Source: the human T2T-CHM13v2.0 reference genome, Homo sapiens
Reading direction: 5' to 3' (one strand)
Length of the DNA stretch: 64,000 nt
Assembly (NCBI RefSeq): GCF_009914755.1
Contig: NC_060931.1
The notes below the pieces were generated by a model. That model did no database searches. It was not told the DNA's origin and was given only the letters and a program-made list of their open reading frames with translations. Numbering within the stretch: position 1 is the first letter of the stretch; the number at the start of each line of letters is the position of its first letter. Shown piece by piece: positions 37,813-40,081 of the stretch. The position numbers and the translations under genes are program-made.

Positions 37813-38082
37813 TAAAATCCATTTTCTTGCCAAATAAAATGTGATGATTTTCTGTAGCTTCACAGAGCCCAATATCCAGGCAAAGATACAGAGTCAAGGT
37901 ATGTTGGAACAGCTCTGTCCATGGAGGATTCCCAGCTCTTCCTACAGTTTGCATACTTCCCAGGGCTATACTTATTTTCTTATGTGGGAATTGCAGGAAC
38001 ACACAGGCCCCACAGGTACCGTGGTGCCTCCTGGCTACTCCAACCAGCCTTATCAGAGCCCTCACCCTTCTACCAACCCTAC

Positions 38083-38462
38083 TGATTTGATTAGTCTTTG
38101 TGTCCACACCCAAATCTCATCTTGAATTGTAATCCCCATAATCCCCACATGTCAAGGGAGAGACCAGATGGAGGTCATTGTATCACTGGAGGGGGTTCCC
38201 CCTTGCTGTTCTCATGATAGTGAGCGAGTTCTCATAAGATCTGATGGTTTTATAAGGGGCTCTTCCCCCCTTCGCTCGGCACTTCTCCTTCCTGCCACCT
38301 TGTGCAGAAGGTGTCTTGCTTCCTTGTTACCTTCCGCCATGATTGTAAGTTTCCTGAGGCCTCCCCAGCCATGCTGAACTGTGAGTCAATTAAGCCTCTT
38401 TCCTTTATAAATTACCCAGTCTTGGGCAGTTCTTTATAGCAATATGAAAACAGACTAATACA
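38083..38462 (+). mobile_element. THE1D/MSTA solo LTR inserted in the MED12 pseudogene
   Basis: tgatt.gatt..ctttgtgtcc.cacccaaatctcatcttgaattg...cagactaataca; TSD cctac/cctat; removing it restores the TNPT-LVDP frame. Confidence 0.92.
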
Positions 38463-38627
38463 CCTATTCTTGTAGATCCTATGTACCACCTGCAACAGTG
38501 GCTCAGTGGCTATGTGTACCAGCAGGCCTTAACCTATAAGTATGGCCTAAGCTCCACTCAAAGATTTTCACACCTGAAACTGTGGCAAACACCCATAGGT
38601 ACTAAGACTCCACTGAATACTCAGGGT

Positions 38628-38822
38628 ATCCTATCCCCACCTCTGGGACCATATCAGGTTTGCAACAGGCAGAGATAAAAGTGACCATGGGGATGCTCAG
38701 AGCATGGTTGACAGGGAACAGCTGAGTTCACTAGAGTGAGCCAATGAATCTATGGGTCCATGCTCTCCTCAGACTGTGCATGGCTATGTGTATACTATGG
38801 AGCTATATAGGGCAGGATTCTC
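38628..38822 (+). repeat. 195-bp direct repeat, copy 1 (inside the MED12 pseudogene)
   Basis: Ungapped match to 40082-40276, about 16 mismatches by hand count. Confidence 0.95.
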
Positions 38823-40081
38823 CTTCAGGAATTCAATCAACTGTCATCCCACCTGAGCAAAAGCAGCAGCAGAAACAGCAGCAGCAGGACCACATCTGAT
38901 GACCGCAGCAGCAACAGCAACAGTGACAGCAATGGCAGCAACAAGTAGCTTCTCCCCCACCCCATCCCCGGTTCCAGAGCTAGGGAATTGTGTCCCGGAT
39001 GTGGCCCCACCTTTTCCTTCCTCTTTATTCCCAATCCCCTTTTTAGGTCGGTACCAGGAGTGGTTGGGGCACTTCCCTCAGGCATTTTTAATGAATTTTT
39101 AGTATTTTTGTTAATGTAAGGCCTTGAATTACGGGTTTTGTATATTATTTACATAGAGACCCCAGAGATGATACACATAGCTTCTCTGCACAAAATATCT
39201 GTGAAAATAAAAAAACAGTTGTTCAGAAATTACTTATAACAACATGTAACATAAAAATTCATGACATTTAATGAATTCATCAGTATTCATTAAATAGTTT
39301 TTATATCCAAATTATAGCGTTTAATGCAGAGAAAGCTCATACCTTAATTATACTCAAAACACACACACATATGCCAATATAAATATATAGGAGATACATA
39401 TATAAGCACAATATGTCTAAAAGTGAAATTATGTTATTCCTTTACCCACTAAATCTGCTTTTCCTTGATTTGCAATCATCTCCCCAGAGACCTCAAACAG
39501 GAAATTGGAATCTTAGTAATCCTTGACTTTTCTGTCTCTCATCCCTTGCCTTCCCCGTACCTCTTCCTAACCACATGTCCATTTAAATAATCATCAAGGG
39601 CTGTCAAATCTAGCTCTGAGATATCTAGGGAATATGATCCTCTCTTTATTCTCATAGTTTCTCTCCTCCCATCTACTTATACTCCTTTAACTTCTCTTCT
39701 TGCCTATGTTGTAAGCTCCACTTACTCTATCTTTCACACCACTTCCAAATTTATTGTTTAGACACATAAAAGACACTTAATACATACTTGTAGAAAGAAT
39801 TAAAGACCTGAATAAAGCTAATTAATTATGGCACCAGAAATATCTCAAGTCCATATGGTGCTTTGATGACAATTAGAAAAAGCTACCCTCCTTCAAGTAG
39901 AAGTAAATAAATACAAATGAACATATTTTTTTAAATGAAATATATAAATTAGAATATTATTGCACAACATATTGTCTTGCTGTTGGGGAGTTTTCCAGAG
40001 CTGCTAATGTGCCCAGACTTGCCCAATCACAATGCCCCACCCTGTAGGAAGCACACGTGCTGACAGCCACAAGTACCCTGC

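What the first reader, a model, noticed from the sequence alone, without database searches (positions are those of the whole stretch)
37875..39212. Hidden, fragmented MED12 retrocopy (processed pseudogene)
Seen: three short ORF pieces (in 37841-38125, 38481-38678 and the CAG-rich 38826-38985) join into one collinear peptide once the LTR and the 195-bp insert are removed. Known (recalled): the peptide is the PQL/OPA C-terminus of X-linked Mediator subunit MED12, and 38990-39190 resembles its 3'UTR. Positions I recall as exon junctions (AKI|QSQ, TSQ|GYT, STQR|FSH, PQ|FQR) are contiguous. Inference: an L1-mediated, 5'-truncated retrocopy older than the THE1D/MSTA insertion. No piece exceeds about 400 bp, so pipelines may have missed it. 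I do not recall a named MED12 pseudogene but cannot check that.
Basis: partly seen in the sequence, partly recalled or inferred. Interest (0 to 1): 0.8.

Follow-up and report, generated by a model that had tools for sequence, protein, structure and literature searches.

The report
Dead MED12 retrocopy on chromosome 7
This is an old, broken, intron-less copy of the tail end of the X-linked MED12 gene that landed on chromosome 7 and was later split by a retrotransposon LTR and by a patch copied from nearby DNA; it is an ordinary processed pseudogene.

Summary
Window 37862-39194 (+), plus an A-rich tail to about 39217, is collinear with the last seven exons and the 3'UTR of MED12 on the X chromosome (G000:C23 69571443-69576537).

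- **Protein matches:** human MED12 chain 8tq2_C, E 3.9e-18 and 5.2e-15.
- **DNA matches:** E down to 4.7e-44. The reciprocal search from the X exons hits only this chr7 site.
- **Introns:** four exon junctions are contiguous in the window, and introns of 165, 90, 2692 and 513 bp are absent.
- **Identity:** 85.4% over 618 non-repeat columns, K2P 0.165.
- **First interruption:** a 380-bp TG...CA solo LTR at 38083-38462, with a 5-bp duplication CCTAC/CCTAT.
- **Second interruption:** a 194-bp patch at 38632-38825. It is a gap-free, 90.7% identical copy of window 40086-40279, 1.45 kb downstream, and the genome holds only these two copies.
- **Splice form:** the copy keeps 9 nt (AKI) that the 2177-aa MED12 form lacks, so it came from an alternative-donor transcript.

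No retrocopy target-site duplication survives. It is dead: frameshifts, stops, and a roughly 123-nt deletion that removes the stop codon. This is an ordinary kind of feature. It is unannotated in RefSeq; GENCODE could not be checked.

The parts
37862..38082 (+). MED12 retrocopy segment 1. It holds the last ~33 nt of the seventh-from-last exon (including the 9-nt GCAAAGATA alternative-donor extension at 37880-37888), the whole next exon, and the 5' half of the following exon.
   Evidence: 89.2% identity over 212 columns to X 69571443-69571931. The 5' limit is uncertain by about 6 nt.
38078..38082 (+). Target-site duplication of the LTR, copy 1 (CCTAC).
   Evidence: The single X sequence CCTAC lies at this point, and the blast pieces overlap on X 69571926-69571931.
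38083..38462 (+). Solo LTR, 380 bp, TG...CA ends, of a very high-copy family. From recall it is MaLR THE1-like; the subfamily was not determined.
   Evidence: 39 of 39 non-self scored matches cover only this part at 86-90% identity, with 8948 first-look candidates; full length against 7 copies, mean K2P 0.108.
38463..38467 (+). Target-site duplication of the LTR, copy 2 (CCTAT, 4 of 5 identical to copy 1).
38468..38631 (+). MED12 retrocopy segment 2: the 3' half of the split exon and the start of the next exon (STQR|FSH junction at about 38563).
   Evidence: 80.5% identity over 164 columns.
38632..38825 (+). 194-bp patch that is not MED12. It is a copy of window 40086-40279 and lies inside a MED12 exon (between X 69574789 and 69574793).
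   Evidence: 176 of 194 identical, no gaps, K2P 0.100, only two copies in the genome.
38826..38983 (+). MED12 retrocopy segment 3: the rest of that exon, a much shortened poly-Q (OPA) part, the PQ|FQR junction, and the first ~14 nt of the second-to-last exon.
   Evidence: Two adjacent in-frame stops (TGATGA) at 38898-38903. The alignment inside the CAG runs is not unique.
38984..39194 (+). MED12 3'UTR-derived part. It follows a ~123-nt deletion that removed the end of the coding sequence and the stop codon.
   Evidence: 87.4% identity over 199 columns.
39192..39217 (+). A-rich remnant, probably the decayed poly(A) tail. 16 of 24 bases are A in 39192-39215.
   Evidence: Read. Homology to X ends here.
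40086..40279 (+). Sister or source copy of the 194-bp patch, in otherwise single-copy DNA 1,454 bp downstream, same orientation.

Best explanation
A MED12 mRNA from the X chromosome was reverse-transcribed and inserted on chromosome 7. That mRNA was spliced with the GT donor that adds the three codons AKI. Only its last ~1.05 kb was copied (5' truncation), most likely by the LINE-1 machinery. The copy never had a promoter or a start codon and decayed neutrally. A MaLR-type retrotransposon later inserted into it and collapsed to a solo LTR. Separately, a 194-bp stretch was copied into it from 1.45 kb downstream, probably by microhomology-primed template switching during DNA repair or replication. 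Shown: the homology, the missing introns, the nesting order, the local origin of the patch and the disablements. Inferred: L1 mediation, the repair mechanism for the patch, and absolute ages.
For: - **Protein matches to MED12:** 1916-1984 and 1980-2039.
- **DNA matches:** only X-linked MED12 exons and 3'UTR. In the reciprocal search, 3 of 3 non-self matches are this locus.
- **Exon structure:** the seven X exons joined at GT-AG borders give an open frame with one terminal stop and 261 residues from QSQGML. This fits the 2177-aa chain.
- **Junctions:** the window is contiguous across the AKI|QSQ, TSQ|GYT, STQR|FSH and PQ|FQR junctions.
- **5' truncation:** no MED12 homology in window 35001-37860 against the last 20 kb of the gene; the only hits there were Alu or low-complexity sequence.
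- **Parent gene:** MED12, not MED12L. The chr7 copy is 64% identical in protein to the MED12 exon, against 49% for chr3. Only MED12's 3'UTR matches.
- **LTR:** TG...CA ends with CCTAC/CCTAT flanks.
- **Patch:** two copies only, gap-free, 90.7% identical. Its K2P of 0.100 is well below the roughly 0.25 expected if it dated from the retroposition itself.
- **AKI:** the X gene has GCAAAGATA|GTGAGA after codon Q1916 and the window keeps these 9 nt, whereas 8tq2_C reads ...QQLQ-QSQGML.
Against: - No target-site duplication of the retrocopy was found. The only shared words between the flanks are A-rich 8-12-mers.
- The poly(A) tail is only a decayed A-rich stretch, and I could not check the MED12 polyadenylation site against an annotation.
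- The exon junction inside the CAG run cannot be placed, and the last junction is deleted.
- Piece 3 alone has no significant protein match.
- The ages rest on recalled substitution rates.
Confidence: 0.95

Rival explanations
1. DNA-level (segmental) duplication of the 3' end of the MED12 gene, followed by loss of the introns through deletions.
For: None specific. Only the general homology to MED12.
Against: Four junctions are exact to the base at GT-AG borders. Introns of 165, 90, 2692 and 513 bp are absent without scars. Homology ends where the 3'UTR ends, and an A-rich stretch follows.
Confidence: 0.01
2. The 194-bp patch is a retained MED12 intron. It begins GT and ends AG if cut at 38626/38830, which would make this a semi-processed retrocopy.
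For: The sequence around the patch reads cag|gtatcc ... ctccttcag|g, like splice sites.
Against: In the X gene the two flanks are 3 nt apart inside one exon (X 69574789 and 69574793). No X sequence matches the patch. The patch is 90.7% identical to window 40086-40279.
Confidence: 0.01
3. The patch was made at the moment of retroposition. The L1 reverse transcriptase switched from the MED12 mRNA to nearby genomic template and back, and the two copies were later kept similar by gene conversion.
For: The source lies only 1.45 kb from the insertion site, in the same orientation. Short shared bases lie at both junctions: ATCC (GTCC in MED12) on the left and CAG on the right.
Against: Copy-to-copy K2P is 0.100, against a retrocopy-to-parent K2P of 0.165 that is mostly on one branch. 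Contemporaneous copies should differ by about 0.25. Gene conversion between 194-bp tracts is an extra assumption.
Confidence: 0.05
4. The locus is a functional retrogene or an exapted element rather than a dead pseudogene.
For: A 95-codon open stretch survives in piece 1, despite indels that cancel each other out.
Against: There is no start codon and no 5' region. The frame shifts after the patch. Two adjacent in-frame stops, TGATGA, lie at 38898-38903. A ~123-nt deletion removes the C-terminus. An LTR and a foreign patch interrupt the copy. No gene or functional element is annotated in the window (hub note). There is no Rfam match in 37000-41000.
Confidence: 0.02

Closest known systems
Human processed pseudogenes (L1-mediated retrocopies of spliced mRNAs), for example the neighbouring annotated EIF4EP4
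   Same: Intron-less, 5'-truncated, on a different chromosome from the parent. It ends in an A-rich tail after the 3'UTR and carries frameshifts and stops.
   Different: It is unusually fragmented: two later insertions leave no MED12-derived piece longer than about 390 bp. No target-site duplication is recognisable. There is no RefSeq annotation.
MED12 (X-linked Mediator kinase-module subunit), C-terminal PQL and OPA regions
   Same: The copy covers residues from about 1906 to the C-terminus plus the 3'UTR, at 85.4% nucleotide identity outside the repeats. Domain order L, LS, PQL, OPA comes from passages of PMC9699684 and PMC7810384.
   Different: It carries the 9-nt AKI extension that the 2177-aa form lacks. 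The poly-Q part is about 140 nt shorter. About 123 nt including the stop codon are deleted.
MaLR (THE1/MST group) solo LTRs
   Same: About 380 bp, TG...CA ends, 5-bp target duplication, thousands of copies.
   Different: Nothing unusual. The family name is from recall and the subfamily is undetermined.
Templated insertions / short dispersed local duplications from microhomology-mediated repair or replication template switching (MMBIR/FoSTeS-type, polymerase-theta-type)
   Same: A short stretch copied from nearby on the same strand in the same orientation. There are 3-4 shared bases at the junctions, and a loss of 3-15 nt at the recipient site.
   Different: The mechanism is inferred from structure only. 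The event is tens of millions of years old, so the junction microhomology is blurred.

Membership tests
Processed pseudogene (retrocopy) | Collinear homology to the parent's mature mRNA, including the 3'UTR | tested here: met
Processed pseudogene (retrocopy) | Exon-exon junctions contiguous, no intron sequence | tested here: met
   4 of 6 junctions are exact (borders). One lies in a CAG run and cannot be placed. One is deleted.
Processed pseudogene (retrocopy) | Lies away from the parent gene | tested here: met
   Chr7 against X.
Processed pseudogene (retrocopy) | Poly(A) tail at the mRNA 3' end | tested here: inconclusive
   There is an A-rich stretch, 16 of 24 A at 39192-39215, where homology ends. 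The parent's polyadenylation site was not checked against an annotation.
Processed pseudogene (retrocopy) | Flanking target-site duplication of 7-20 bp (L1 endonuclease signature) | tested here: not met
   One search found only A-rich low-complexity words shared between the flanks. Erosion at about 15% divergence is expected, so this does not argue against retroposition.
Processed pseudogene (retrocopy) | Disabling mutations | tested here: met
   Frameshift after the patch, two adjacent stops (TGATGA) at 38898-38903, ~123-nt deletion, two insertions.
MaLR solo LTR | TG...CA termini and 5-bp target duplication | tested here: met
MaLR solo LTR | Match to a named subfamily consensus (THE1D, MSTA) | not testable with these tools
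   No Dfam or RepeatMasker library was available. The name is recall only.
Templated local insertion | Donor nearby, low copy number, junction microhomology | tested here: met
   2 of 2 genome matches are the two window copies. They are 1,454 bp apart. ATCC and CAG are shared at the junctions.

The most novel reading that the evidence does not exclude
The 194-bp patch was copied into the cDNA during target-primed reverse transcription itself. The L1 reverse transcriptase jumped from the MED12 mRNA to genomic template 1.45 kb from the integration site and back, which would make this a natural fossil of RNA-to-DNA template switching. A more modest reading is that the locus is a dated fossil showing three things: the AKI alternative donor of MED12 was already in use, the poly-Q tract may have been shorter when the copy was made, and a microhomology-templated insertion later drew on DNA 1.45 kb away.
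Probability: 0.05. Interest if true: 0.35.

Novelty: new member of a known kind. Interest (0 to 1): 0.12.

Why it matters
It matters little biologically. It adds one fragmentary MED12 pseudogene to a genome that holds thousands of processed pseudogenes.

Three practical points follow:
- It is an 85%-identical off-target for reads or probes from MED12's last exons and 3'UTR, and RefSeq does not list it.
- It is a compact teaching example of nested dating: retrocopy, then LTR and templated patch.
- It preserves evidence that the +9-nt (AKI) splice donor of MED12 was used in the germ line tens of millions of years ago.

Tried and rejected
- **Retained-intron reading of the patch.** Rejected: its flanks are 3 nt apart within one X exon, and the patch matches local chr7 DNA instead.
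- **Dispersed-repeat reading of the patch.** Rejected at blast sensitivity: only two genome copies.
- **MED12L as parent.** Rejected.
- **More MED12 sequence upstream of the Alu, or inverted pieces.** None in window 35001-41000 against X 69558001-69578000; the only other hits were Alu or low-complexity sequence.
- **Retrocopy target-site duplication.** None found.
- **Rfam over 37000-41000.** 0 matches.
- **Piece 3 against PDB.** Only chance MmpL3 hits with E>1.
- **A guessed 12-mer for the upstream exon end.** Not found (script error); solved by translation search instead.
- **My first exon borders.** They were off by 1-2 nt, and were corrected.
- **Literature.**
  - Three searches found no paper that names a MED12 pseudogene or retrocopy.
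  - Two listing hits for 'med12p1' had no occurrence in their main text.
  - Passages of PMC12016303, PMC5414091 and PMC12553238 concern other matters.
  - PMC6354217, PMC9429973, PMC3638132, PMC4490682 and PMC11361640, and the seven other papers listed (hits on 'med12p' only), were seen only as listings.

Full report
**What is there.** The window is human chr7 (T2T-CHM13), and the whole assembly could be searched as G000.
- Piece 1 (37838-38125) matches human MED12 (PDB 8tq2_C, 2177 aa) residues 1916-1984, E 3.9e-18.
- Piece 2 (38448-38678) matches residues 1980-2039, E 5.2e-15.
- Piece 3 (38735-38899) is short and glutamine-rich, and on its own found only chance hits with E>1.

**Genome searches.** With the whole interval as query, 39 of 39 non-self scored matches fell on query 226-642 only, at 86-90% identity, out of 8948 first-look candidates. 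That part is a high-copy repeat.

With the repeat left out:
- Window 37811-38083 gave 3 matches: itself and two on C23 (X), at 69571641-69571719 and 69571805-69571931.
- Window 38468-39212 gave 35 matches. These were itself; four on X (69571931-69572026, 69574804-69574901, 69575327-69575448, and 69576322-69576533 at 79% identity, E 4.7e-44); one on chr7 itself (see 'The patch' below); and 29 CAG-repeat loci that match only query 370-494.
- The reverse search, X 69571300-69572026 against the genome, gave 4 matches: itself and three pieces of this chr7 locus. The intron parts of that query did not match.

**Exon structure and missing introns.** I fetched X 69558001-69578000 and read the exon borders from the sequence. 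Seven terminal exons are bounded by AG and GT:
- ...-69571475
- 69571641-69571718
- 69571809-69572026
- 69574719-69574941
- 69575314-69575454
- 69575968-69576049
- 69576260-stop at 69576303

Joined, they give an open frame with a single terminal stop and 261 residues from QSQGML. This fits a 2177-residue protein in which QSQGML starts at 1917. My first borders were off by 1-2 nt.

A small-word blastn and a global alignment of the spliced X sequence to the window, with the two interruptions removed, show one collinear chain:
- 37889-37964 to X exon 69571641-...
- 37960-38083 and 38463-38563 to the next exon
- 38562-38631 and 38826-38940 to the next exon
- 38856-38984 to the poly-Q exon
- 38988-39190 to the 3'UTR

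The window runs straight across AKI|QSQ, TSQ|GYT, STQR|FSH and PQ|FQR. Introns of 165, 90, 2692 and 513 bp are absent. The junction inside the CAG run cannot be placed, and the last junction lies in a deletion.

Outside the CAG runs, identity is 85.4% over 618 aligned columns, K2P 0.165. By part it is 89.2%, 80.5%, 76.7% and, for the 3'UTR, 87.4%.

**Limits of the copy.** Homology begins at about 37862, which is 33 nt before the end of the seventh-from-last exon. Nothing further upstream in window 35001-37860 matches the last 20 kb of MED12 on either strand; the only hits there were Alu or low-complexity sequence. The copy is therefore 5'-truncated. Homology ends at about 39194, where an A-rich stretch follows (16 of 24 A in 39192-39215, read). 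I take this as the decayed poly(A) tail. I could not check the annotated MED12 polyadenylation site. No target-site duplication was found between the flanks, only A-rich 8-12-mers.

**Which gene is the parent.** The MED12 exon protein matches the chr7 copy at 64% identity (two pieces) and chr3:154162228, presumably MED12L, at 49%. Only MED12's 3'UTR matches. The parent is MED12.

**An alternative splice form.** The 2177-aa chain reads ...RLRQQLQ(1916)-Q(1917)SQGML. The X gene has ...CTCCAG GCAAAGATA|GTGAGA. The window keeps GCAAAGATA at 37880-37888, directly joined to CAGAGTCA. So the retroposed transcript used the GT donor 9 nt downstream of the donor needed for the 2177-aa form, which adds AKI. 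Whether that isoform is annotated today I know only from recall.

**The LTR.** 38083-38462 is 380 bp and runs from TG to CA. It is flanked by CCTAC (38078-38082) and CCTAT (38463-38467), where the X sequence has a single CCTAC. It aligns over its full length to seven other genomic copies, with mean K2P 0.108 (range 0.095-0.125). Among those seven (21 pairs) the mean is 0.101. These seven are the best matches, so the distance is a lower bound for the family. By recall the sequence looks like a THE1-type MaLR LTR; no repeat library was available to name the subfamily. Its nesting shows that it arrived after the retrocopy.

**The patch.** It is therefore not an intron, although it happens to be readable as gt...ag. 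It matches window 40082-40291 at 90% identity. A search with window 39980-40400 found 2 of 2 matches on chr7, namely itself and the patch. The core, 38632-38825 against 40086-40279, aligns without gaps, with 176 of 194 identical, K2P 0.100. The two copies have the same orientation and lie 1,454 bp apart.

The junctions show short shared bases:
- Left: ATCC in both copies, GTCC in MED12.
- Right: CAG is shared. The next 12 bases resemble the downstream copy (9 of 12) slightly more than MED12 (7 of 12), so that junction is uncertain by about 12 nt and 3-15 nt of MED12 sequence were lost (base counts by eye).

I infer a templated insertion from nearby DNA during repair or replication. Had it arisen during retroposition itself, the two copies should differ by roughly twice the pseudogene branch, about 0.25, not 0.10. 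I therefore give that reading about 5%.

**Decay.** Compared with the spliced parent, the copy lacks about 123 nt, from just after FQRQ to the start of the 3'UTR, stop codon included. It has a poly-Q part about 140 nt shorter, several small indels, a frame shift after the patch, and two adjacent in-frame stops, TGATGA, at 38898-38903. It has no start codon and no upstream MED12 sequence. No Rfam family matches 37000-41000. The hub's note says that RefSeq annotates nothing in the window.

**Ages (inference, using recalled neutral rates of about 1.2-2.2e-9 per site per year).** Most of the 0.165 lies on the pseudogene branch, which gives the retrocopy an age of very roughly 60-100 million years. 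The patch, at 0.05 per branch, comes out at roughly 25-40 million years. The LTR is at least of similar order. Only orthologous loci can settle this, and no other eukaryote genome was available.

**Literature.**
- Three full-text searches found no paper naming a MED12 pseudogene or retrocopy: MED12 + processed pseudogene; MED12P1 / MED12P / MED12 pseudogene / retrocopy / retrogene; MED12 + retrocop.
- The passages I opened concern other matters.
- Two 'med12p1' listing hits had no occurrence in their main text.
- The MED12 domain order L, LS, PQL, OPA, and the C-terminal position of PQL and OPA, come from passages of PMC9699684 and PMC7810384.
- GENCODE and the retrocopy catalogues could not be consulted.

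**Verdict.** The observation and the interpretation are both right. The feature is a dead, fragmented processed pseudogene of MED12. It is an ordinary kind of thing and of low interest. Two details are added here: the local origin of the patch and the AKI splice form.

Noticed in passing
window 37505-37815 (+): A full-length Alu with an A-rich tail lies about 45 bp upstream of the retrocopy's 5' end. It matches several Alus in MED12 introns at about 70% in the permissive blastn. By recall it looks AluJ-like. It is not part of the retrocopy.
   Followed up: partly
window 39980-40400: Apart from the 194-bp stretch shared with the retrocopy patch, this DNA is single-copy in the genome. What it is otherwise is unknown.
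   Followed up: partly
L020 (G000:C23) 69571467-69571475: The MED12 exon ending at codon Q1916 is followed by GCAAAGATA|GTGAGA. The 2177-aa form must therefore use a GC donor, with a GT donor 9 nt downstream that adds AKI.
   Followed up: partly
G000:C16 16675651, 18626540, 19852090: Three of the eight closest LTR copies lie on chr16 within about 3 Mb. One pair among the seven compared copies differs by only K2P 0.005, which suggests a recent segmental duplication there.
   Followed up: no
window 39358-39372: A short CA-rich microsatellite-like run lies just downstream of the retrocopy.
   Followed up: no
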